Positions 18,560 through 58,466 of a stretch of DNA of 64,000 bases are shown here, piece after piece; within the stretch, counting starts at the first letter, position 1, and every line of letters begins with the position of its first letter. The notes beneath the pieces were generated by a model. That model had not been told where the DNA came from. It did no database searches and was given only the letters and a program-made list of their open reading frames with translations. Location of the stretch: NCBI GenBank assembly GCA_000004985.1, contig GG738931.1; one strand, given 5' to 3'. The translations under genes and the position numbers were made by a program. This DNA comes from Naegleria gruberi (Eukaryota).

Positions 18560-18985
18560 ACTTTCGAATAAATGTTATTTTTTTGGTGTTTAGTTTGGTT
18601 TCTGTAAACACCACATTGTGAAATGGAAAGAACTTGTGTCCCGCACTGGAACTATCTATTTCGTTTATTTGATATCCTCGCGATGATGTGAAACAGATCA
18701 ACTTCCACTACATGCATTTTAACTTGCTGACAAGCGAAGGATCTAGGAGCCCAGAGATTTTTGTAAAATCAATTATTTTGAAAAGTTTGAATTAGAAACG
18801 CAAGGTCGCGCTGGAAAATAAACCATTAGGACTATATTAAGCAAAAATGCTACAAAAAATATATTTCATTACACGTGTATTACAACAATATATTGAAATA
18901 GGTATTCCTTTACAAAAAGCAATAAGTGGGCACAAGTGTATTACGATGGACTGACTGTATACAGTCATATTCAAAGAAAACAATT

Positions 18986-20110
18986 TTACATTACAGAACA
19001 TTTTTTCGATTGTTTCATCAACTTTCTCTGCTTTTTACAAGTTTCAATGAATGCAGAATCGTGTTGAATGACTTCCTTCAGGAGTTTCAGATTATCACCT
19101 GATCCATATCTCTTTAGTCTTACACATTCTTCATATACTCGAATAATGTTTTCTCCCGTCTTGGCACTTGTTTCAATGATGAAAGTATTGGTCAATTGAG
19201 ATTGTTTAATGATGGTAGCAATTTGGTTAGTAAATTTCTCAATGGTGATTGGTCGATCTGTTTCATTCAATAAATCGACCTTATTTAAGGCAAATACTAC
19301 TGGAAAGCTATTTTCCTCAAAGTCCTTAACTCTTACTAATTGTTCTACAAGTGGTTCGGCTTCTTCCACTGAATTACTATCTACCAAATCACAAACAAGA
19401 ACGAAACACTCTCCATATCTCATAAAATGATCTCTCGCGGACTTGATAAATTTAATTAGTTTAGAATGGCATTATTCTAAAGAACTTACACTGTATTCAT
19501 GTTCAGCAGAGTCCAAAACTTCAAATAATGTAGGAAAACCATCAACCAACAATTGTTTTCTATAAACATCCTCTATTGTTGGATCATATTGTTCAATAAA
19601 GAAATCTTGTATATATTTCACTGTCATTGCAGACTTTCCTATTTCAAAATAATTAACCTATTAACAGAAAATTATTAAATTCTTACCTACTCCTCCCTTT
19701 CCAATCATCACCACTTTAGTTTTCTCAATTCCATCCAATTTTTTAGGTGTTCCCCAAATGTGAAACTTAATAAATGCAGCCATCAGCACTTTCCTCTTCA
19801 ATTCTCTCTTTAGAATCATTTCCTCCTTCAGTAAACTAAACTCCTTCTCCAAAGATGGATTAATTCCAAACCAAATCTCCCAAACCTTCCACCAAAATCT
19901 ATCAAAATATCGTTCCATCTCTGGCATACTAGCAATCTTCCTATTCAATGATTGAAAATTAGCCATATATCGTACATAGGATCGTATTTCACTGCTCCCA
20001 CTCGAAAAATTCTTTTTCAGCAATTCGGAATCTCCCACTCCGAACGATAAAATGTGTTGATAAATTTCATAGGGAAGTGATGAGAATTGTGTGATGTGTT
20101 TTGGAGCCAT
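18986..20110 (-). CDS. F-box-like N-terminal domain fused to an atypical Ras-family small GTPase with a CaaX tail. This is copy A; it has three exons.
   Basis: Exon 1 spans 19687..20110 (MAPKHITQFSSLPYEIYQHILSF...VVMIGKGGVGK). Intron 1 spans 19639..19686. Exon 2 spans 19490..19638 (SAMTVKYIQDFFIEQYDPTIEDVYRKQLLVDGFPTLFEVLDSAEHEYS). Intron 2 spans 19442..19489. Exon 3 spans 18986..19441 (SARDHFMRYGECFVLVCD...ALNKVD...ETSAK...KKCSVM*). Both donors are GTAAGA/GTAAGT. The start is set at MAPKH by homology with copy B. The ORF-track extension upstream of it, to 20272, is taken as UTR. Confidence 0.8.
18986..20110. repeat. arm A of an inverted gene-sized duplication (partner at 55880..57007)
   Basis: I compared exon 3 and the intron sequences of the two copies by eye. 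They are about 95% identical at the nucleotide level, including the introns. Similarity ends within about 10-15 bp beyond the start and stop codons. Confidence 0.8.
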
Positions 20111-20271
20111 TTTTTTCTGATGTTCAAAACCAAGTTCACTGTTGTTTTGCCGATTACAACAATTACAACGGAACGACTCTTCTCCTGGTGGGAAAGGAGC
20201 CAAACATAATATTGGCTTGCAGAGATGAATCATCGAAATATTACTCAACCACATGCCAATCCGAAGCATCA

Positions 20272-21738
20272 TTATTTTCTATTGATAATTGAAAGATCTG
20301 TAAATGGATGTGGTGACTTGACAATATAATTAAACTTGTTAGGAAATAATGTAAATTGGTTCCTTCTATAATTGACTTTAACAATGGTACCAACAGCAAT
20401 AGTTGCACGTCCATCCCTAATTATAATTCTTCCAAGTTTGTTGCAATCATTGTAGCTATCCACAAATAATGGAACAGTAGGTGCCAATTCAACAAGTGCT
20501 ACATCTCCTATTTCAAGACAGGATGGATTTTCCTCAATTATTATTGAGCTATCTGTAGGATTCAATATCCCAATCAATTTCTCAAATTTAGTATTGGCAA
20601 AAGCTAGCCCACAATGTACTATTGGAGCATAACCAGCCCTTATTGAGGGTTTAGGAGTATTAATTATTGAAATTTGTGCTATAAACCTGGATGCTGCCTT
20701 ACATGGTGAAAAATATGGATCGCTTATTATGTAACCAGTTTTAGTTGGTGGCAGATTATCGAATTCAATACCAACCAGAGAGTTGGAAAATGCTCTCTCC
20801 TTGTTGGTATGTGAAATTTGAATATTCTTCACTCTCACATTAATCAATTCTCCACTATGCACTCGTGGAATTTGAACTGTCATTCCAACCTTAACCATTC
20901 CACTAATAATATATCCAGCAAGAATGCCATTCGGCAACTTGGGTTTAAAAATTGCAATTCTCAATGGCTCTCGCAAACATTCCTCAACAGTCCTTTGAAA
21001 GTTGGTTTCCATATTATTCAACGTTTCAGTGAGTGTTTTTCCACAATACCATTTCATATTTTCTGACCTCTCAAAAACATTATCTCCACACTCTCCACAA
21101 ATTGGAATGAATGGAATTTCTTGCTTGATTCCAACTGTCTTGATTAATTTACCAATACTTGTTTTAATTTCCAAAAATCTCTTCTCTGAATATTTCACAC
21201 AATCCATCTTATTGACACACACTATGAACCTCTCAATTCCAGCAACTTTTGAATAAATTAGTTGCTGCTTATAAGAAAATGATAGATTCTCTCGGTGGAA
21301 TCCAGCTTCAAACTCTCCATCAGATGCACTAACCACCATCAAACAAACATTTCCCATCGAAATCCCTTGAATTGTCTTCTTTATAAAATCACCATGTCCA
21401 GGTGTGTCAATAATCCGAAATTGACAAGCAGACAATTCAATTACATGTTTAGCATTCACATCAGTACTTATTTCTCTCTCTGCCTGAGTTGGAGAATCCA
21501 GCATGAGTGAAGAGATATGAAAATGATTTCTATTTCCCATCCATGATTGAATTCCAAATCGTTGAAAAATCGCTTGTTGTCCTTGCTGATAAAGCTCACA
21601 TTGACGCTTTAATTGTTCATAAACTTGTGGTTTAATTTTTCTTACCAATTGACCACCAAGTGTTGATTTTCCGCAGTCTACAAATCCAATCAAGACTAGA
21701 TTAAATTCTTCGGGTTTGATTTTTCTATGATCAGACAT
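20272..21738 (-). CDS. divergent eEF1A/HBS1/eRF3-family translational GTPase (488 aa)
   Basis: Recognised elements: G1 GFVDCGKST (canonical GHVDSGKST), QAEREISTDV (ERERGITID), G3 IIDTPGHGDF, GEFEAG, G4 VNKMD, a domain II beta-barrel (ILAGYIISGMVKVGMTV) and a domain III (RIIIRDGRATIAVGTIVKV). Only 11 residues precede the P-loop. Confidence 0.8.
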   Translation of the reverse strand: MSDHRKIKPEEFNLVLIGFVDCGKSTLGGQLVRKIKPQVYEQLKRQCELYQQGQQAIFQRFGIQSWMGNRNHFHISSLMLDSPTQAEREISTDVNAKHVIELSACQFRIIDTPGHGDFIKKTIQGISMGNVCLMVVSASDGEFEAGFHRENLSFSYKQQLIYSKVAGIERFIVCVNKMDCVKYSEKRFLEIKTSIGKLIKTVGIKQEIPFIPICGECGDNVFERSENMKWYCGKTLTETLNNMETNFQRTVEECLREPLRIAIFKPKLPNGILAGYIISGMVKVGMTVQIPRVHSGELINVRVKNIQISHTNKERAFSNSLVGIEFDNLPPTKTGYIISDPYFSPCKAASRFIAQISIINTPKPSIRAGYAPIVHCGLAFANTKFEKLIGILNPTDSSIIIEENPSCLEIGDVALVELAPTVPLFVDSYNDCNKLGRIIIRDGRATIAVGTIVKVNYRRNQFTLFPNKFNYIVKSPHPFTDLSIINRK

Positions 21739-25234: not shown

Positions 25235-27766
25235 TTATAATTCGAACTGTGATGATTGAGAAGGAAGATTTCCCTGTTGTTTTCTATTCAATACAAACAT
25301 TACAATAGACACAATCAATGCAATCATACACAAACACATTAGAAGGAAGAAAGTTGGAACTAGAATTGCAATTAAAATGACTGATAAATCTCCAGTACTG
25401 ACCGTTGAAGAAGCTGAACGATTTGTGAGAGCTGATCTCTGGACAGCAACAGAGGAAATGTAGGAAGTAGAACAGATTATTTGATTAGAGGTGGAAAAGG
25501 ATGAGGTAACTAATTGATTCGTCCAACTATTCGAATCATAATCAAATCTCAAACAAGTATAATTATAATTGGAAACATCAAAAATCAAACCACTGAAATA
25601 ATACTTGATTTGCTTAGATAACTGAATATGAATCAACTCTGATTTGGCATTCTGAATCATGAAATTAGTAACATTCGAATAAAATTGCTCATTCGACCGA
25701 GTTGAAGAAGTGCTGAAATAAAAACTATTGGACGATAAATTCAATCCAAAAGTAGAACCATCCTCAACGTAAATCAATTGCTTTTCATTTGCCAAACTCA
25801 GAACCAAATATTCCCAAGTATTTGATGACATCTTTACAAAGGTTTCAGTTTCAGAGCCAGTGGAACATGTCAATTCGTTGCTGTCACTGTCTAAATCCAT
25901 CAAACATTCAATAATGGAACAATCGAGATATTTCCAATGAGTATTGCATGAACAAGTGTTATTGGAAATGCAAGTTCCATGATTACTGCAATTACTCAAT
26001 GCATCACATGAAATTGTTGAACATTGAGAATTACCTTTCCAACCAGAATTACATTCGCATGAATTATTCGAAACACAACTTCCATGACCTGAACATTCGT
26101 TTAAGGCATCACATGAAATTTGAGAACATTGAGAGTTTCCTCTCCATCCTGAATGACAGCTACAAGTATTATTCGAAACGCAATCACCATGATGAGAACA
26201 ATTATTAAGAATTTCACATGTGAAAAGTGAACATTGAGAATTTCCCTTCCAACCAACTTGACATTCACACGTATTATTCGAAACACAATTTCCATTACCA
26301 TAACAATCATTCAAAGCATCACAGCTAATCACAGAACATTGAGCATTTCCTTTGAATCCACTTTCACATGAACATGAATTATTCGAAACACATTGACCAT
26401 GACCTGAACAATTGTTTAAAGTTTCACAAGTAAAGTTTGAGCATTCAGAATTACCAAGCCAACCATTGTTGCATTCGCATGTATTATTCGAAACACAATG
26501 TCCATTTCCATTACATTCGTTTAAAACTTCACAAGAAAAGGAAGAACAAGAAGAATCTGATTTCCAACCTGATTCGCATGAACAGGTATTATTTGAAATG
26601 CATGAACCGTGACCTGAACAGTGATTCAAAGAATCGCAACTAATAGCTGAACAATGAGAATTACCTTTCCAGCCAGAATTACATTCGCATGAATTATTCG
26701 AAACACATTGTCCATGATTATTGCAATGATTTAAAGCTTCACAACTAAATAAGGAACAATTAGAATCTCCTTTCCATCCTGAATAACACATACAAGTATT
26801 ATTCGAAACGCATGAGCCATGACCATTACAATTATCAACTAGCTCACAAGACGGAGTTTTACAATTTTCACCATGCCAATAATCATCACATTGACATGTA
26901 TTATTCGAAACACATTGTCCATGTCCAGAACAATAATTCACGCCATCACATGAAAATTGAGAACAGTTGACATTTCCTTTCCATCCAGATTGACAGGAAC
27001 AAGTATTTGCTGATATACAACTTCCATGATCTAAACTGCAATTATCTCTGGAAATGCAATTAAAAAATTGACACTTGTTTCCATGATAACCATCAGAACA
27101 GACACAATTATTTGGAGATGGACATGAGCCATGACCAGAACAAACTAAACTAGAGGTGGACAATACATTATAACATAATGGAGTGGTGCAGTTTAGTCCT
27201 TCCCATAAATAGGTATTCGAAAGTCCAGCTGTCCAAGTGTGGGTTTCCCAACAAACTTCCTCTTGAGCTCCGTAGAGAACTAAATTACCATCATTTTGTA
27301 AAACTAATCTAAAAGGAGCTGTTCCAGAACCACAACTACTTGCTAATCCTAACAGATTAGTACTCCCACCATTTCCTTTTATGGACAAGGAACCATCTGT
27401 GGCCAAAGCCAAGACATATGGTCCACTTCCACCTGTAGCAGTATAGGATTTCTTCTCCTCAGCTGTAATAGAATTCATAAGAGACAAGACACCACTCGAT
27501 TTCATGGCCAAAGTAAAGGTTCCATCTGTGGACACGAGAGATTCTCCCTGAACTAAAGTTTGTCTTCTGTCAGCTGTCCAAGCAGAGTAGATGGAGTTTT
27601 GATAGACACTATCGACACAATAGCAAGTACCATAGTTACAGACTCCATGACTACCACACGAATCTTGTTCAGTTGCGAGAATGCCATTACAAGTGGACAC
27701 AGCCAAAGTTGTGCTTGCCAATGAAAGCAAGTTGACCAGAAGAAGAAGAGAAATTAAAAGCTTCAT
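25235..27766 (-). CDS. type-I membrane protein with a signal peptide, a bulb-type (mannose-binding) lectin-like domain, about 14 tandem EGF-like modules and a C-terminal TM
   Basis: Signal peptide MKLLISLLLLVNLLSLASTTLA. B-lectin-like motif ...VLQNDGNLVLYGAQ.... Repeated module CSGHGQCVSNNTC.C.SGWKGN..CS..SC..LN.C..HG. TM helix LSVILIAILVPTFFLLMCLCMIALIVSIVMFVL. Confidence 0.8.
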   Translation of the reverse strand: MKLLISLLLLVNLLSLASTTLAVSTCNGILATEQDSCGSHGVCNYGTCYCVDSVYQNSIYSAWTADRRQTLVQGESLVSTDGTFTLAMKSSGVLSLMNSITAEEKKSYTATGGSGPYVLALATDGSLSIKGNGGSTNLLGLASSCGSGTAPFRLVLQNDGNLVLYGAQEEVCWETHTWTAGLSNTYLWEGLNCTTPLCYNVLSTSSLVCSGHGSCPSPNNCVCSDGYHGNKCQFFNCISRDNCSLDHGSCISANTCSCQSGWKGNVNCSQFSCDGVNYCSGHGQCVSNNTCQCDDYWHGENCKTPSCELVDNCNGHGSCVSNNTCMCYSGWKGDSNCSLFSCEALNHCNNHGQCVSNNSCECNSGWKGNSHCSAISCDSLNHCSGHGSCISNNTCSCESGWKSDSSCSSFSCEVLNECNGNGHCVSNNTCECNNGWLGNSECSNFTCETLNNCSGHGQCVSNNSCSCESGFKGNAQCSVISCDALNDCYGNGNCVSNNTCECQVGWKGNSQCSLFTCEILNNCSHHGDCVSNNTCSCHSGWRGNSQCSQISCDALNECSGHGSCVSNNSCECNSGWKGNSQCSTISCDALSNCSNHGTCISNNTCSCNTHWKYLDCSIIECLMDLDSDSNELTCSTGSETETFVKMSSNTWEYLVLSLANEKQLIYVEDGSTFGLNLSSNSFYFSTSSTRSNEQFYSNVTNFMIQNAKSELIHIQLSKQIKYYFSGLIFDVSNYNYTCLRFDYDSNSWTNQLVTSSFSTSNQIICSTSYISSVAVQRSALTNRSASSTVSTGDLSVILIAILVPTFFLLMCLCMIALIVSIVMFVLNRKQQGNLPSQSSQFEL
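25950..27150 (-). repeat. tandem array of about 100-105 bp coding repeat units (EGF-like modules) inside the lectin-EGF gene
   Basis: Recurring ...gaaacacaa/gtccatgacctgaaca... units, visible as near-identical protein modules (CVSNN[ST]C[ES]C.SGWKGNSQCS). Confidence 0.5.
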
Positions 27767-54110: not shown

Positions 54111-55616
54111 TTAAAGAATCCACATGAAGAGAATCAAACAAGTGGAGACAACAAGTGTTGTCCAAAAGATACTCGACAATGAGTACAGATACTTCTTAAA
54201 GGTGTGATTCAATCCATATACTTCCTGAATGAATGTGCTTACGGTTGTGAGGGAGCCACAAAATCCAACCGAGAATGCATCAATCCAATAAACAGCAACA
54301 CCAGAGGTGAAACCTGAAACGTAGGCAGTACCTTGTAAAATAACCAAGATTAGAGAGCCAATGATATTGACAGCAAGTGTGAAAATTGGCATTTGGAATC
54401 TTTCAACAGCTTTAAATGTAATATTTAGCTTGCAAATTAAATATCTCAATAAACAGCCAAGAGGAGCAACGAGGAGAGTGAGGCAAAGACTTTGATCCAA
54501 TGATTTTGAAACGTTCATAGCACCAAGCAGAACAATAAAAACTGAAATGACAGCCATCAAAACTACAAACAAATCAACAGCCATTTTGATTGCTGTTCTT
54601 GATTTCCATTTGGCATTTCTAATTTGTTGATACTCTTCCAGTAATTTTCTTTTGAATAATTCTCCATTACTCTCGGCAATATATTTAATTTCACCTTCTT
54701 CCAAGAGAATCTTTCTCTGATCCTCATTTGGAATTGGTTCTACAATATCTACATCTTCAGCCAATCCAGAAGCAACACTCGAAGATGCAATTGAATTAAC
54801 ACTATTTTGACTTGTCATTGTGACCTGTTGTGGCGCCTTTGCATTTCCAAATTTCTTCCTCAAAACAGGAATCACAAAACTCAAAATTGCATTTGTAATA
54901 TCCTTCGCAATTACAAATGCAAAATAACAAGTTGTAAAACCAACTACTTGCTTACTCACAAACGACAAGACATCTCCCTTCATTAAACTAATTGCAGCAT
55001 TCACTTGCCAACTTGAAAATGTTGTAATGCATCCACACATCCCAGTCGATAGTCCAGTATATATCCTCTTCTCAAACGACAATGTTCCATGAAAAACTCT
55101 ATGCAGAAACAACTTGACCATTCTCTTCTTTGATTCCTCCATTCCTTCCAAAGATATTGCTGATGAATTATTACTCTTCACCATAATAGGAGTATTACTT
55201 TCACTACTACTACCATTATTATTATTATTAGTAACCTTATTCTTTTCCAATTCAACTAACAAGGCCTTCTCCTTCTCCTTCAACTCTTCCAAAGGCTTTT
55301 TAATAAAGTGCAAATGAATGACCATTAAAACTCCCATGATGAAGCAACCCACAATATTTGCATACAAATCGGAGAAGAATAAATCATCAATGGATTGAAC
55401 GATATTACCATTGGATGATGTCGATGGATTCATAATATTGTTATTATTGCTATTATTATTGGAGGAGGAGAGGGAAGGCTTGTAGAGAGTGTCGGAGAGA
55501 AGAATTCGAATTAAAACACCAATCATGCAGAATACGATGAGGTAGGCAATGTAGAGTAAATGTTTGGATAAATTGATGGCAAATTTGAAATTTTCTTTGA
55601 GTAGTTGCATTGTCAT
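54111..55616 (-). CDS. fluoride export protein FEX (tandem CrcB/Fluc domains)
   Basis: Two CrcB-like halves, each with the signature G..G..TTFS.[FW]: GMCGCITTFSSWQVNA and GFCGSLTTVSTFIQEV. Eight to nine TM helices. There is a long N/S-rich and charged loop between the halves. Confidence 0.75.
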   Translation of the reverse strand: MTMQLLKENFKFAINLSKHLLYIAYLIVFCMIGVLIRILLSDTLYKPSLSSSNNNSNNNNIMNPSTSSNGNIVQSIDDLFFSDLYANIVGCFIMGVLMVIHLHFIKKPLEELKEKEKALLVELEKNKVTNNNNNGSSSESNTPIMVKSNNSSAISLEGMEESKKRMVKLFLHRVFHGTLSFEKRIYTGLSTGMCGCITTFSSWQVNAAISLMKGDVLSFVSKQVVGFTTCYFAFVIAKDITNAILSFVIPVLRKKFGNAKAPQQVTMTSQNSVNSIASSSVASGLAEDVDIVEPIPNEDQRKILLEEGEIKYIAESNGELFKRKLLEEYQQIRNAKWKSRTAIKMAVDLFVVLMAVISVFIVLLGAMNVSKSLDQSLCLTLLVAPLGCLLRYLICKLNITFKAVERFQMPIFTLAVNIIGSLILVILQGTAYVSGFTSGVAVYWIDAFSVGFCGSLTTVSTFIQEVYGLNHTFKKYLYSLSSIFWTTLVVSTCLILFMWIL

Positions 55617-55879
55617 TTTTTTTAAATTTTGTGTTAATTAATTAACTTAAATATTAAATACACAATATTATTAAATATTGTAAACAGTCAAGTCATGAAA
55701 TCTGCATTTATTTTTCCTTAATAAACTTTGTAATCAAACATTAACATCTCTCTTTGCTCTTCCAAGTTCAACACGAACATCACCGAACCAAGTTCTTAAT
55801 TGACCAAAAAAACAACTTTCAATACTTACTGTATCGAGAACTTCCTCAAACACATCAAACATAACACACAAGAAAAAAA

Positions 55880-57007
55880 ATGGCTCCAAAACGCATCACA
55901 CAATTCTCATCACTTCCCTACGAAATTTATCAACACATTTTATCGTTCGGAGTGAGTGATTCCGAATTATTGCTGAAAAAGAATTTTTCGAGTGGGAGTA
56001 GTGAAATTCAATCCTGTGTACGATATGTGGCTAATTTTCAATCATTGAATAGGAAGATTGCTAGTATGCCAGAGATGGAACGATATTTTGATAGATTTTG
56101 GTGGAATGTTTGGGAGATTTGGTTTGGAATTAATCCATCTTTGGAGAAGGAGTTTAGTTTATTGAGGGAGGAAATGATTCTAAAGAGAGAATTGAAGAGG
56201 AAAGTGCTGATGGCTGCATTTATAAAGTTTCACATTTGGAGAAGAATTAAAAATTTGAATGGAATTGATGAAACTAAAGTGGTAATGATTGGAAAGGGAG
56301 GAGTAGGTAAGAATTTAATAATTTTCTGTTAATAGGTTAATTATTTTGAAATAGGAAAGTCTGCAATGACAGTGAAATATATACAAGATTTCTTTATTGA
56401 ACAATATGATCCAACAATAGAGGGTGTTTATAGAAAACAATTGTTGGTTGATGGTTTTCCTACATTATTTGAAGTTTTGGACTCGGCTGAACATGAATAC
56501 AGTGTAAGTTCTTTAGAATAATGCCATTCTAAACTAATTAAATTTATCAAGTCCGCGAGAGATCATCATATGAGATATGGAGAGTGTTTCGTTCTTGTTT
56601 GTGATTTGGCAGATATTAATTCAGTGGAAGAAGCCGAACCACTTGTAGAACAATTAGTAAGAGTTAAGGACTTTGAGGAAAATAGCTTTCCAGTAGTATT
56701 TGCCTTAAATAAGGTCGATTTACTGAATGAAACAGATCGACCAATCACCATTGAGAAATTTACTAACCAAATTGCTACCCTCATTAAACAAACTCAATTG
56801 ACCAATACTTTCATTATTGAAACAAGTGCCAAGACGGGAGAAAACATTACTCGAGTATATGAAGAATGTGCAAGACTAAAGAGATATGGATCAGTTGATA
56901 ATCTAACACTCCTGAAAGAGGTTATTCAACACGATTCTGCATTCATTGAAACTTGTAAAAAGCAGAGAAAGTTGATGAAACAATCGAAAAATTGTTCTGT
57001 AATGTAA
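55880..57007 (+). CDS. F-box-like N-terminal domain fused to an atypical Ras-family small GTPase with a CaaX tail. This is copy B; it has three exons.
   Basis: Exon 1 spans 55880..56306. Intron 1 spans 56307..56354 (GTAAGAATTTAATAATTTTCTGTTAATAGGTTAATTATTTTGAAATAG). Exon 2 spans 56355..56503. Intron 2 spans 56504..56551 (GTAAGT...tatcaAG). Exon 3 spans 56552..57007. Spliced protein: MAPKRITQFSSLPYEIYQHILSF...VVMIGKGGVGKSAMTVKYIQDFFIEQYDPTIEGVYRKQLLVDGFPTLFEVLDSAEHEYSSARDHHMRYGECFVLVCD...ALNKVD...ETSAK...KNCSVM*. The introns are nearly identical to those of copy A. Confidence 0.85.
55880..57007. repeat. arm B of an inverted gene-sized duplication (partner at 18986..20110)
   Basis: As for arm A. 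The arms are in opposite orientation and about 35.8 kb apart. Confidence 0.8.
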
Positions 57008-57053
57008 AAATGTTGCTTAATAAAATTGTAGATATATATTTGTTTCGAATAAT

Positions 57054-58466
57054 TTATGAGATTTCAATCATGAATAGGTATTGCAAAGAAGAAATGGTAC
57101 GCTCCTCACTTACTATTTCCCTTTCAACTAGGGTGGGATTTTGAGATTTTGTTCCAATTGACCTAATCACAAAATCATACCATTTAAACGGTTTGAAATT
57201 GGATTTCTTTTGAGATGTTTGTTTGACATTCAGCTCATTGAAAATATCAAAATCTTTTACCATTTTCACGAAAGAAAATTCTCCTTTTTGCAATCTTCTA
57301 AACATTCTTTCATCAACATGGCTCAATAAAGTACCAATTCGATTCTTATACTCCACAACTATGGAATTTTTCTCAAAAATCTCCAATTGATTCGTATAAT
57401 TAACTTGATGCCATGTTGCATCAGCAAGTCCAAATCTTTTTGCAATTTTCAAAATATTCCAAAATATAAATTGTAAAATATTCATCTTTTTCTTTTCATT
57501 TCCAATAAGAGTTAAAACATTTGATGGAATTTGCAATTTTTCATTCATTGGAATGAAATAATTTCCAAATAATAATTCGATTCTTTCCCAATTTGGAAAA
57601 TTGTTATTCTTAGGATCGAATATTGCATAATGGAATAGATCTCCTCTTTTAATCCAAGATAAATCAACTCCCAATGTTAGTGAGCAGTTCATTAAATAAT
57701 TATTGGCCTTTCTAATAGAATTAATCTTTCTCTTTTTCGGATACAACAATCCACACATAGAATCATACGTATAACTAAAGCAATTATCTGTTCTCTTTAC
57801 CAAAACTTGATTATTGTAAATGGAATTCAAAACTAAATGATACGGAACTTGAATTTGAAGATTTTTCGAACAAAACAAGAGATGAATTTGTGAGATTCCA
57901 ATAGATTTCAAATTTTCTGCATAATTATTCAAAGGTTCTTGTAATCTGTGCAATCCAATCAGAGACAGAGTGATGCAGTATTTCTGAGTCAATTTTGAAA
58001 TTGTTAATTTTCGAATATAATTATCCGAAATTATTTCTGCTTTAGTATTCAACTTTGCATGATTAGTTTCAATGACTAACCATTCCAAATTATCAAGATA
58101 ATAAAATCTTTTCAACATTTCAATAGCAGATTTCGAATTTTCCAAATACGAATTTGTTCGAAACTTGATCCAATCCTCCTTTTCCACAAGTTTAAAGTCA
58201 TCAAATTCTACCTCCTTTTTAACTAAATCAGTTCCGAAATAACCATATACTGTTGGTATTTTCGAATTACGAAACCTTTCCACTAACACTTGTTTCTGCA
58301 TTCTTTCAATCTTTTCGAAACAAACCGAATTTATTCTCTTAAATTTCCGCTGATAGAAATAGGGAAGAAATGACACAATCTCACACAATAAATCCTCATT
58401 GATTTGACGCATTTTTTTTTTATTTATTGTTAAATTTTGATCAATTCTGAAATGCTTGAATTTCAT
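57054..58466 (-). CDS. hypothetical 470-aa protein with a possible F-box-like N-terminus
   Basis: ATG start. QINEDLLCEIVSFLPYFYQRKFKRINSVCFEKI fits a loose F-box pattern. No other motif is recognised. Confidence 0.5.
   Translation of the reverse strand: MKFKHFRIDQNLTINKKKMRQINEDLLCEIVSFLPYFYQRKFKRINSVCFEKIERMQKQVLVERFRNSKIPTVYGYFGTDLVKKEVEFDDFKLVEKEDWIKFRTNSYLENSKSAIEMLKRFYYLDNLEWLVIETNHAKLNTKAEIISDNYIRKLTISKLTQKYCITLSLIGLHRLQEPLNNYAENLKSIGISQIHLLFCSKNLQIQVPYHLVLNSIYNNQVLVKRTDNCFSYTYDSMCGLLYPKKRKINSIRKANNYLMNCSLTLGVDLSWIKRGDLFHYAIFDPKNNNFPNWERIELLFGNYFIPMNEKLQIPSNVLTLIGNEKKKMNILQFIFWNILKIAKRFGLADATWHQVNYTNQLEIFEKNSIVVEYKNRIGTLLSHVDERMFRRLQKGEFSFVKMVKDFDIFNELNVKQTSQKKSNFKPFKWYDFVIRSIGTKSQNPTLVEREIVSEERTISSLQYLFMIEIS

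What the first reader, a model, noticed from the sequence alone, without database searches (positions are those of the whole stretch)
55880..57007. Ras-like GTPase with G12K, G60E and Q61H-type substitutions plus an F-box-like N-terminus and a CaaX box
Alignment to Ras gives GAGGVGKS as GKGGVGKS (Gly12 to Lys). DTAGQEEYS becomes DSAEHEYS, so Gly60 is Glu and Gln61 is His. In Ras each of these changes abolishes intrinsic or GAP-stimulated GTP hydrolysis. The G4 (NKVD) and G5 (SAK) motifs and the farnesylation box (CSVM) are intact. I therefore predict a membrane-targeted, hydrolysis-dead Ras, comparable to Rnd/RhoE-type proteins. It is fused to an N-terminal 130-aa region carrying an F-box-like motif (LPYEIYQHILSF). 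A GTPase-locked Ras joined to an SCF-recruiting module is an unusual architecture. The switch I residue differs between the copies (IEDVY versus IEGVY), which suggests effector-loop divergence.
Basis: partly seen in the sequence, partly recalled or inferred. Interest (0 to 1): 0.65.

Follow-up and report, generated by a model that had tools for sequence, protein, structure and literature searches.

The report
Atypical Naegleria Ras with F-box-like helix
This is an already annotated Naegleria gruberi Ras-family gene whose molecular-switch region is degenerate, so it probably cannot switch normally; it carries a lineage-specific helical N-terminal domain that resembles an F-box only in its first helix.

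Summary
The gene is real. The organism is therefore a heterolobosean, not an amoebozoan. The C-terminal two thirds are an unambiguous Ras domain (Pfam Ras E=8e-27) ending in a polybasic stretch and CSVM.

Of the three claimed substitutions, two hold. Switch II is DSAEH-EYS against Ras DTAGQEEYS: G60E, His at 61, and one residue missing. "G12K" is a numbering error. The Lys sits at Ras position 11, which I recall to be variable, and G12/G13 are intact.

The F-box claim is only weakly supported. This protein has no Pfam F-box hit, and relatives score below threshold. Profile comparison matches real F-boxes over about 19 residues (helix 1, LPxEIxxHILxF). The predicted helical N-terminal domain recovers no F-box structure.

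The architecture defines a family found so far in Naegleria and Willaertia. F-box–GTPase fusions are already reported in Naegleria for Rab, Rho, Ran and Gα.

The degenerate switch II is shared with a second copy in the window through a gene-conversion tract. A syntenic relative keeps DTAGPEEYS.

Verdict: partly confirmed, a new member of a known kind, of modest interest.

The parts
55880..57007 (+). Whole gene (ATG to stop), 3 exons, 343 aa; equals N. gruberi NEG-M XP_002669123.1
   Evidence: Splicing. Exact identity to P0122.
55880..56306 (+). Exon 1. Encodes the N-terminal helical domain and the P-loop up to Val142 plus the first base of the Gly143 codon.
55907..55951 (+). F-box-like helix 1 (residues 10-24, SSLPYEIYQHILSFG)
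   Evidence: hhalign of the family N-termini against Pfam-verified plant F-boxes gives probability 95% over 19 columns only. The family profile hits those F-box/LRR proteins at E=2e-7 and 2e-5 in 1.8 billion proteins. This protein itself has no Pfam hit.
55880..56263 (+). Family-specific all-helical N-terminal domain (residues 1-128). Includes the conserved NFQSLN.KI, YF..FWW and LKRK.LL motifs.
   Evidence: Alignments A3 and A5. AlphaFold2 N-terminal model has pLDDT 82 and 8 helices. No significant structural neighbour.
56307..56354 (+). Intron 1 (48 nt, GTAAG...AG). It splits the Gly143 codon inside the P-loop.
   Evidence: It is 100% identical in copy 2.
56291..56362 (+). P-loop GKGGVGKS (residues 138-145, spanning intron 1). 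Lys is at Ras position 11; Gly12 and Gly13 are intact.
   Evidence: HMMER alignment to KRas.
56405..56431 (+). Switch I / effector loop YDPTIEGVY (residues 160-168). Thr35 equivalent is kept. The Asp38 equivalent is Gly here and Asp in copy 2 and in L001.
   Evidence: The single-base difference is at 56424.
56480..56503 (+). Degenerate switch II DSAEHEYS (residues 185-192): G60E, His at 61, one Glu missing
   Evidence: Codon-level comparison with L001. Family motif table.
56504..56551 (+). Intron 2 (48 nt)
   Evidence: Identical in copy 2. 15 of 49 aligned columns differ from L001.
56285..56566 (+). Gene-conversion tract shared with copy 2: 2 differences in 282 bp, against 42 in the other 846 bp
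   Evidence: Fisher p=5e-4.
56708..56719 (+). G4 motif NKVD (residues 245-248)
56825..56833 (+). G5 motif SAK (residues 284-286)
56957..57004 (+). Polybasic stretch KKQRKLMKQSK (residues 328-338), Asn339 and the CaaX box CSVM (residues 340-343)
   Evidence: Translation. CaaX is conserved across the family. That X=Met predicts farnesylation is from established knowledge.
18989..20110 (-). Paralogous copy 2 (exons 20110-19687, 19638-19490, 19441-18989; 342 aa). Equals XP_002669149.1, whose public model is truncated at Met63.

Best explanation
This is one of two gene-converted paralogs of a Ras subfamily found so far only in heteroloboseans (Naegleria gruberi and Willaertia magna). In order, the protein has:
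- a roughly 125-residue all-helical N-terminal domain that opens with an F-box-like helix;
- a Ras G domain;
- a short helical C-terminal extension;
- a polybasic stretch and a farnesylation box.

The G domain keeps every element needed to hold guanine nucleotide and Mg2+: the P-loop including Gly12/13, Thr35, Asp57, NKxD and SAK. It has lost the DxxG glycine (Glu) and the catalytic Gln (His), and switch II is one residue shorter.

Inference: the protein sits on a membrane, binds nucleotide, and neither hydrolyses GTP efficiently nor makes the canonical gamma-phosphate-driven switch II movement. It would then act as a non-switching, pseudo-GTPase-like adaptor. Partner binding would come from the effector loop and the N-terminal helical domain. 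Whether that domain recruits Skp1/SCF is open.

Shown: gene structure, Ras membership, motif states, family distribution and the gene-conversion mosaic. Inferred: membrane targeting, nucleotide binding, loss of switching and the adaptor role.
For: - The gene model equals XP_002669123.1.
- Pfam Ras scores 94 bits.
- The AlphaFold2 full-length model has pLDDT 87.6 and pTM 0.78. Its G domain superposes on Rap1/KRas with target-normalised TM 0.85-0.90.
- Motif states come from the KRas alignment and the family table.
- The family has at least nine N. gruberi loci and several in Willaertia. All have the N-terminal extension, a Ras domain and, where complete, CaaX.
- Selection between the two copies: dN/dS = 0.50, fewer non-synonymous changes than neutral expectation (p=0.025).
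- Selection against the syntenic relative L001: dN/dS = 0.33 for residues 216-343 (p=0.037).
- Both copies keep intact ORFs and splice sites.
- Several N. gruberi paralogs already lack Gln61 (Pro in four paralogs and in L001, Ile in one). The clade therefore functions without the catalytic Gln.
- RGK GTPases provide a working precedent for Glu in place of the DxxG Gly, with low GTPase activity (PMC2174817).
Against: - No expression or protein evidence was available.
- The switch I/II block evolves almost neutrally relative to L001 (dN/dS 0.82, not significantly below 1).
- A version with DTAGPEEYS exists at the syntenic locus in L001 and in unassembled NEG-M reads. The DSAEH state is therefore dispensable, at least in some genomes.
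- A Glu next to the gamma-phosphate could weaken GTP binding rather than lock it.
- All selection tests rest on few substitutions.
- No biochemical property was tested.
Confidence: 0.55

Rival explanations
1. The two copies are functionally relaxed duplicates on the way to pseudogenisation. They belong to a Ras family of about 80 genes that evolves by birth and death. The degenerate switch II would be damage spread by gene conversion, not an adaptation.
For: - dN/dS is 0.82 in the switch I/II block against L001, and 0.69 in the N-terminal domain.
- The DSAEH block at locus 1 is a converted tract from the other copy.
- A canonical-length DTAGPEEYS version persists at the syntenic locus and in unassembled NEG-M reads.
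- This copy also carries D38G in the effector loop.
- Herman et al. describe birth-and-death evolution with pseudogenes in related Naegleria GTPase expansions.
- The exact DSAEH-block pattern and a protein-based scan found nothing in the JGI metagenome collection.
Against: - Both copies keep full ORFs, start codons, both splice-site pairs, all nucleotide-binding motifs and the CaaX box.
- The overall dN/dS of 0.50 between the copies is below neutral (p=0.025). It is 0.33 for the C-terminal half against L001.
- The degenerate block differs from the DTAGP version at about 18% of sites, including intron sites. It is therefore an old lineage that has stayed open.
Confidence: 0.25
2. The N-terminal domain is a true, divergent F-box that binds Skp1. 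The protein is then a farnesylated, membrane-anchored SCF substrate receptor. Its non-hydrolysing Ras domain would constitutively capture Ras-binding proteins for ubiquitination, or the F-box would drive its own turnover.
For: - The LPxEIxxHILxF helix matches genuine F-boxes: hhalign probability 95%, and profile hits to F-box/LRR proteins at E=2e-7 and 2e-5.
- The Willaertia homolog's N-terminus hits Pfam F-box-like over 44 residues at E=1.7e-4.
- 3 of 17 family members give sub-threshold F-box-like hits.
- In Naegleria the F-box is the most frequent domain fused to Rab, Rho, Ran and Gα GTPases.
- TbFRP is a FYVE + F-box + GTPase protein.
Against: - This protein has no Pfam F-box hit at E<=10.
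- No family member reaches the Pfam gathering score.
- Profile-profile alignments stop after helix 1.
- PDB sequence-profile searches list no F-box protein.
- Herman et al. list these genes as plain Ras, with no F-box flag.
Confidence: 0.15
3. The protein is still a working GTPase switch that uses a non-canonical catalytic arrangement. His189 could act as the catalytic residue, or a GAP could supply the catalytic residue in trans, as RapGAP does for Rap. Both the translational-GTPase DxxGH motif and the RapGAP mechanism are recalled from memory.
For: - His occupies the position of the catalytic residue.
- Paralogs with Pro or Ile at position 61 imply that the clade does not depend on Gln61.
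- All nucleotide-binding motifs are intact.
Against: - The DxxG glycine is replaced by Glu and the loop is shortened.
- The entry title of PDB 6mnx describes impaired hydrolysis in KRAS Q61H.
- No specific GAP is known.
Confidence: 0.05

Closest known systems
Classical Ras/Rap small GTPases (H/K/N-Ras, Rap1/2; Pfam PF00071)
   Same: - G-domain fold.
- P-loop with Gly12/13, Thr35, Asp57, NKxD and SAK.
- A YDPTIE effector-loop core.
- A polybasic stretch plus CaaX, as in K-Ras4B.
- 38-40% identity.
   Different: - Switch II lacks Gly60 and Gln61 and is one residue shorter.
- Ala11 is Lys, and Asp38 is Gly in this copy.
- A 130-residue N-terminal helical domain and a helical C-terminal extension are added.
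RGK GTPases (Rad, Gem/Kir, Rem): DXWE in place of DTAGQ
   Same: A Ras-superfamily G domain in which the DxxG glycine is replaced by Glu and the catalytic Gln is absent. These changes are described as consistent with low intrinsic GTPase activity (PMC2174817). This is the best functional analogy.
   Different: - RGK proteins also replace Gly12, have Trp at position 59, lack CaaX and carry calmodulin-binding extensions.
- They are described from animals.
- No specific sequence relationship was found here.
Naegleria F-box–GTPase fusions (Rab-like, Rho, Ran, Gα; Herman et al. 2021, BMC Biol 19:142, Supplementary Material 4 and Table S8)
   Same: - Same genus.
[quoted passage not shown]
- One Rab-like subgroup also ends in CaaX.
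   Different: - Here the G domain is Ras-family. The paper names Rab, Rho, Ran and Gα among the F-box combinations, not Ras.
- Table S8 lists these genes as plain Ras.
- The F-box signal is restricted to helix 1.
TbFRP (Trypanosoma brucei FYVE–F-box–Ras-like GTPase; PMC3593210)
   Same: A discoban protein that joins an F-box to a C-terminal Ras-like GTPase domain. The role of its F-box is likewise unknown.
   Different: - TbFRP has a FYVE domain and a Rab18/Ypt6-like G domain.
- Its authors found no N. gruberi ortholog.
Rab40 (SOCS box) and RhoBTB (BTB domains)
   Same: Small GTPase domains fused to a cullin-RING ligase adaptor module, which is the conceptual model for the SCF reading. This is from my own knowledge. 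RhoBTB is also noted in Naegleria.
   Different: They use different adaptor modules (SOCS/CRL5, BTB/CRL3) and different GTPase families. For the Naegleria Ras, no ligase link has been shown.

Membership tests
Ras family small GTPase (PF00071) | Pfam Ras HMM above the gathering score | tested here: met
   94.2 bits against a cutoff of 21.6, E=8.2e-27, residues 133-300.
Ras family small GTPase (PF00071) | G1 P-loop GxxxxGK[ST] with Gly12/Gly13 | tested here: met
   GKGGVGKS aligns to GAGGVGKS. Only position 11 differs.
Ras family small GTPase (PF00071) | G2 / switch I Thr35 and a Ras-type effector loop YDPTIEDSY | tested here: met
   YDPTIEGVY. Thr35 is kept. D38G and S39V are present in this copy; copy 2 has Asp38.
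Ras family small GTPase (PF00071) | G3 DxxG followed by the catalytic Gln61 | tested here: not met
   DSAEH. Gly60 is Glu, position 61 is His, and one residue is deleted.
Ras family small GTPase (PF00071) | G4 NKxD and G5 SAK | tested here: met
   NKVD and SAK.
Ras family small GTPase (PF00071) | G-domain fold | tested here: met
   AlphaFold2 pLDDT 87.6. Foldseek top hits are Rap1 and KRas at E about 1e-14 and target-normalised TM 0.85-0.90.
Ras family small GTPase (PF00071) | C-terminal CaaX prenylation box | tested here: met
   CSVM at residues 340-343, preceded by KKQRKLMKQSK.
Ras family small GTPase (PF00071) | GTP binding and hydrolysis | not testable with these tools
   This needs biochemistry.
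F-box domain (PF00646 / PF12937) | Pfam F-box or F-box-like HMM at or above the gathering score | tested here: not met
   No hit at E<=10 for residues 1-132. The best relative, Willaertia P0013, scores 21.7 bits against a cutoff of 24.3. 3 of 17 members give sub-threshold hits.
F-box domain (PF00646 / PF12937) | N-terminal LPxE[IL]xxxI[LF] helix 1 | tested here: met
   LPYEIYQHILSF. hhalign against Pfam-verified F-boxes gives probability 95% over 19 columns.
F-box domain (PF00646 / PF12937) | Helices 2-3 (the ...VCKrW... segment) and the three-helix F-box fold | tested here: inconclusive
F-box domain (PF00646 / PF12937) | Binding to Skp1 | not testable with these tools
   This needs a complex prediction or an interaction assay.
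RGK-type atypical GTPases | DXWE in place of DTAGQ, Gly12 replaced, no CaaX, calmodulin-binding extension | tested here: not met
   Only the Glu at position 60 and the loss of Gln61 are shared. Gly12 is kept, position 59 is Ala, and CaaX is present. This is a functional analogy, not membership.
Heterolobosean N-terminal-extension Ras subfamily (defined here) | Conserved N-terminal domain (LPxEI, NFQSLN.KI, YF..FWW, LKRK.LL) + Ras domain + DNLxLLK helical tail + CaaX | tested here: met
   An exhaustive HMMER search with the N-terminal profile gave 18 representatives. 16 were read as family-type sequences: those with a public name are all N. gruberi or Willaertia magna, and the rest are unnamed ENA/Logan/SRA sequences. 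The other two are plant-type F-box/LRR proteins.

The most novel reading that the evidence does not exclude
The N-terminal domain is a highly divergent but functional F-box. This heterolobosean family would then be the first Ras-family (as opposed to Rab, Rho, Ran or Gα) SCF substrate receptor. It would be a farnesylated, plasma-membrane-anchored ubiquitin-ligase adaptor. In the two N. gruberi copies its G domain has lost the nucleotide switch, so it would recruit Ras-binding partners for ubiquitination constitutively.
Probability: 0.15. Interest if true: 0.55.

Novelty: new member of a known kind. Interest (0 to 1): 0.3.

Why it matters
N. gruberi has about 80 Ras-family genes and over 350 Ras-superfamily genes, and almost none has a known role.

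This subfamily may extend the reported Naegleria theme of GTPase domains fused to ubiquitin-ligase adaptor-like modules to the Ras family proper.

The two copies also give a natural contrast within one species complex. One version has a switch II of canonical length with the DxxG glycine (DTAGPEEYS). The other has a degenerate, RGK-like switch II (DSAEH-EYS). That makes a clean test case for how Ras paralogs drift into pseudo-GTPases.

Practically, the finding corrects two points:
- The public model of copy 2 lacks its first 62 residues.
- The supposed G12 substitution does not exist.

It does not open a long-standing question by itself. [quoted passage not shown]

Tried and rejected
- **Pfam on the N-terminus.** Residues 1-132 gave nothing at E<=10.
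- **PDB sequence-profile searches.** The family N-terminus (A1) and the Willaertia subgroup (A6) gave only chance-level hits (Atg32, a tRNA nucleotidyltransferase, endothelin receptor) and no F-box protein.
- **Profile comparison with a Naegleria F-box–Rab.** hhalign against XP_002677491 aligned 17 columns at probability 35%.
- **Word-indexed protein searches.** The N-terminal profiles (A1, A5) returned only 1 and 3 proteins. The exhaustive HMMER search was what defined the family.
- **First structure job.** It worked once P0122 was used.
- **Metagenome scans.** A scan for the DSAEH-block DNA and a protein-based scan both found nothing.
- **Literature search for the accession numbers.** No main-text mentions were found.
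- **Retrocopy origin of the duplicate.** I considered and rejected it because both introns are retained.
- **Mis-splicing as the cause of the short switch II.** I considered and rejected it. The only in-frame GT...AG pair is the one used, and the public model agrees.
Full report
**1. What is in the sequence**

The region 55880-57007 on the + strand holds an ATG-to-TAA gene interrupted by two 48-nt introns (56307-56354 and 56504-56551). Both introns start GTAAG and end AG. Splicing them out gives a 1032-nt frame and a 343-aa protein.

That protein is identical, residue for residue, to P0122. The window (34% G+C) is heterolobosean, not amoebozoan.

A second copy lies on the minus strand at 20110..18989. 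Its public model, XP_002669149.1 (P0001, 281 aa), starts at the internal Met63. The full 342-aa frame, with the same N-terminus, is open.

**2. The GTPase domain**

Pfam Ras matches residues 133-300 at E=8.2e-27. The best solved relatives are K-Ras, H-Ras and Rap2A. A full-length AlphaFold2 model is confident (pLDDT 87.6, pTM 0.78). Its G domain superposes on Rap1/KRas with target-normalised TM 0.85-0.90.

In the HMMER alignment to KRas, GKGGVGKS pairs with GAGGVGKS. Ras numbering runs G10-A11-G12-G13-V14-G15-K16-S17 (my own knowledge). The lysine is therefore at position 11, and Gly12 and Gly13 are conserved. I recall position 11 to be variable in the superfamily (Asp in many Rab, Rho and Ran proteins), so no loss of hydrolysis follows from it.

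Thr35, Asp57, NKVD and SAK are intact.

Switch II is genuinely abnormal: LDSAEH-EYSSARD against LDTAGQEEYSAMRD. MAFFT and HMMER place the one-residue gap differently. The DNA comparison with the closest relative resolves it most simply as GGA>GAA (G60E), CCT>CAT (Pro/Gln61 to His) and loss of one GAA (Glu62 or Glu63).

The effector loop reads YDPTIEGVY here and YDPTIEDVY in copy 2, in L001 and in most relatives. D38G is therefore a private change of this copy.

The C-terminus is KKQRKLMKQSKNCSVM, a polybasic stretch followed by a CaaX box ending in Met. From established knowledge this predicts farnesylation, and the layout resembles K-Ras4B.

**3. The N-terminal 130 residues**

Pfam finds nothing in this protein even at E<=10. 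The region is nevertheless conserved. An exhaustive HMMER search of 1.8 billion representatives with a four-sequence profile found 18 proteins. The 15 whose sequences I fetched then, plus P0121 read earlier (16 of the 18), share three features:
- the same N-terminal domain (LPxEIxxHILxF, NFQSLN.KI, YF..FWW, LKRK.LL);
- where complete, a Ras domain with a DNLxLLK helical tail;
- where complete, a CaaX box.

Those that carry a name are N. gruberi (at least nine loci) or Willaertia magna, where several lie on one contig.

The other two hits (P0133, P0135) are plant-type proteins with multiple F-box/LRR units. Pfam calls F-box in them at E=1e-18 to 1e-33. They match only profile positions of roughly 8-55.

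The other evidence on the F-box question is as follows:
- hhalign of the family N-termini against those verified F-boxes gives probability 95%, but aligns only 19-20 columns, which is helix 1.
- The Willaertia homolog P0013 gives Pfam F-box-like over residues 12-55 at E=1.7e-4 (21.7 bits). That is below the 24.3-bit gathering score.
- 3 of 17 members give such sub-threshold hits.
- A separate AlphaFold2 model of residues 1-131 is all-helical, with eight helices and pLDDT 82.

A complete F-box, and hence SCF recruitment, is unproven.

**4. Evolutionary context**

Nucleotide homology between the two copies begins 6 bp before the ATG and ends 7 bp after the stop. The flanks are unrelated.

Within the gene, 44 positions differ: 41 substitutions and one 3-nt (one-codon) indel. 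Both introns are identical. The 282-bp block 56285-56566 covers intron 1, exon 2, intron 2 and the start of exon 3. It has 2 differences, against 42 in the other 846 bp (Fisher p=5e-4).

A 3-kb ENA metagenome contig (L001) carries the same gene next to the same CrcB neighbour. Its 5' flank is nearly identical to copy 1 (7 of 107 aligned flank positions differ, against 63 for copy 2). It is therefore syntenic with this locus. In L001:
- exon 1 mostly follows copy 2 at the informative sites;
- the central block differs from both window copies at 45 of 249 sites;
- the block encodes GKGGVGKS ... DTAGPEEYS|AMRDQYMRSGE.

The same DTAGPEEYSAMRD version was recovered by Herman et al. from unassembled NEG-M reads.

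I infer that the DSAEH block is an old, distinct lineage. Its intron sites have diverged as well. I also infer that it was recently copied between the two NEG-M loci by gene conversion.

| Comparison | dN/dS | Test against neutral |
|---|---|---|
| Copy 1 vs copy 2, whole gene | 0.50 | p=0.025 |
| Copy 1 vs L001, residues 1-130 | 0.69 | not tested |
| Copy 1 vs L001, residues 143-215 (switch block) | 0.82 | not significant |
| Copy 1 vs L001, residues 216-343 | 0.33 | p=0.037 |

They rest on few substitutions.

Across the family, position 61 is:
- Pro in four N. gruberi paralogs and in L001;
- Ile in one N. gruberi paralog;
- Val in one Willaertia member (DTVGVEEY);
- Gln in one N. gruberi member and three Willaertia members (one of these read by eye, because the regex mis-hit it).

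Glu at position 60 occurs only in the two window copies and, within a different surrounding motif, in XP_002673059 (DTIESDY).

**5. Mechanism**

The nucleotide-binding elements are intact. The protein lacks the glycine whose backbone senses the gamma-phosphate and lacks the catalytic glutamine (both roles recalled from memory), and switch II is shortened.

The best-supported reading is a membrane-anchored, nucleotide-binding Ras paralog that does not switch. It would resemble RGK GTPases, where DXWE replaces DTAGQ and intrinsic GTPase activity is low (PMC2174817). "GTP-locked" goes beyond the evidence, because a Glu beside the gamma-phosphate could instead disfavour GTP. The N-terminal helical domain is the likely partner-binding or regulatory module.

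The rivals are:
- relaxed duplicates drifting towards pseudogenes;
- a true SCF receptor;
- a non-canonical but active GTPase.

**6. Comparison with what is known**

Herman et al. 2021 (BMC Biol 19:142, Supplementary Material 4) re-annotated the N. gruberi Ras superfamily. They state that the F-box is the most frequent extra domain and that it is combined with Rab, Rho, Ran and Gα domains. They also describe Rab-like subgroups with a conserved N-terminal extension "in at least some identifiable as the F-box", one of which has CaaX.

Their Table S8 lists XP_002669123.1, XP_002669149.1, XP_002671236.1 and XP_002672966.1 as plain "Ras", with no extra domain. TbFRP of trypanosomes is a FYVE + F-box + GTPase protein, and its authors found no Naegleria ortholog.

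The architecture is thus a further instance of a described Naegleria theme, now in the Ras family. The degenerate switch II is a further instance of the atypical or pseudo-GTPase theme.

**7. Verdict**

The gene is annotated and catalogued. Its F-box-like helix and RGK-like switch II appear not to have been pointed out. I rate it a new member of a known kind, interest about 0.3.

Noticed in passing
window 18979-20116 (-) versus 55874-57014 (+): The duplication is confined almost exactly to the coding unit (96% nucleotide identity), and the flanks are unrelated. Both 48-nt introns are 100% identical while the exons differ at 44 positions. The pattern against the syntenic contig L001 is a mosaic, which indicates repeated gene conversion between the loci.
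   Followed up: yes
window 20110-18989 (-): The public model of copy 2 (XP_002669149.1, 281 aa) starts at internal Met63. It therefore omits the F-box-like helix. The homologous ATG at 20110 gives an open 342-aa frame. The exon-1 ORF also runs further upstream, to an ATG at 20272.
   Followed up: partly
L001 1915-3036 (ENA ERZ929261 contig, 3071 bp): A syntenic version of this gene, with the CrcB gene upstream, encodes a switch II of canonical length (DTAGPEEYS|AMRD) with Pro at position 61. Its second intron is 42 nt, not 48 nt. The same protein version was reported from unassembled N. gruberi NEG-M reads in Herman et al. Table S8. It could be the other allele of this locus.
   Followed up: partly
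P0138 (N. gruberi XP_002673059.1): Another family member has Glu in place of the DxxG glycine, within a different motif (LDTIESDYHY), and a degenerate P-loop (GSERVGKS). This suggests recurrent decay of the switch in this family.
   Followed up: no
Willaertia magna proteins KAL9647497, KAL9647500, KAL9647519, KAL9647557 and ABK040_006875 (all with longest contig 422,509 bp): Several Willaertia members of the same N-terminal-extension Ras family appear to sit on a single contig, suggesting a tandem gene cluster. Two of them (KAL9647497 and KAL9647557) keep Gln61 (DTAGQDEF, DTPGQEEF).
   Followed up: no
window 26001-26835: A tandem array with a 105-bp period (also scored as 210 bp), about 8 copies, 66-72% matches. 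It probably encodes a 35-residue Cys-rich protein repeat on the minus strand.
   Followed up: no
window 57054-58466 (-): The convergent downstream ORF of 470 aa has no Pfam hit. By eye, its N-terminus (INEDLLCEIVSFLPYFYQRKFKRINSVCF) is faintly reminiscent of an F-box.
   Followed up: no
window 20272-21738 (-) and 54111-55616 (-): Neighbouring genes. An eEF1A/EF-Tu-like translational GTPase (Pfam GTP_EFTU E=5e-25) ends about 160 bp upstream of copy 2. A two-domain CrcB fluoride-channel homolog (E=2e-26) lies upstream of copy 1.
   Followed up: partly
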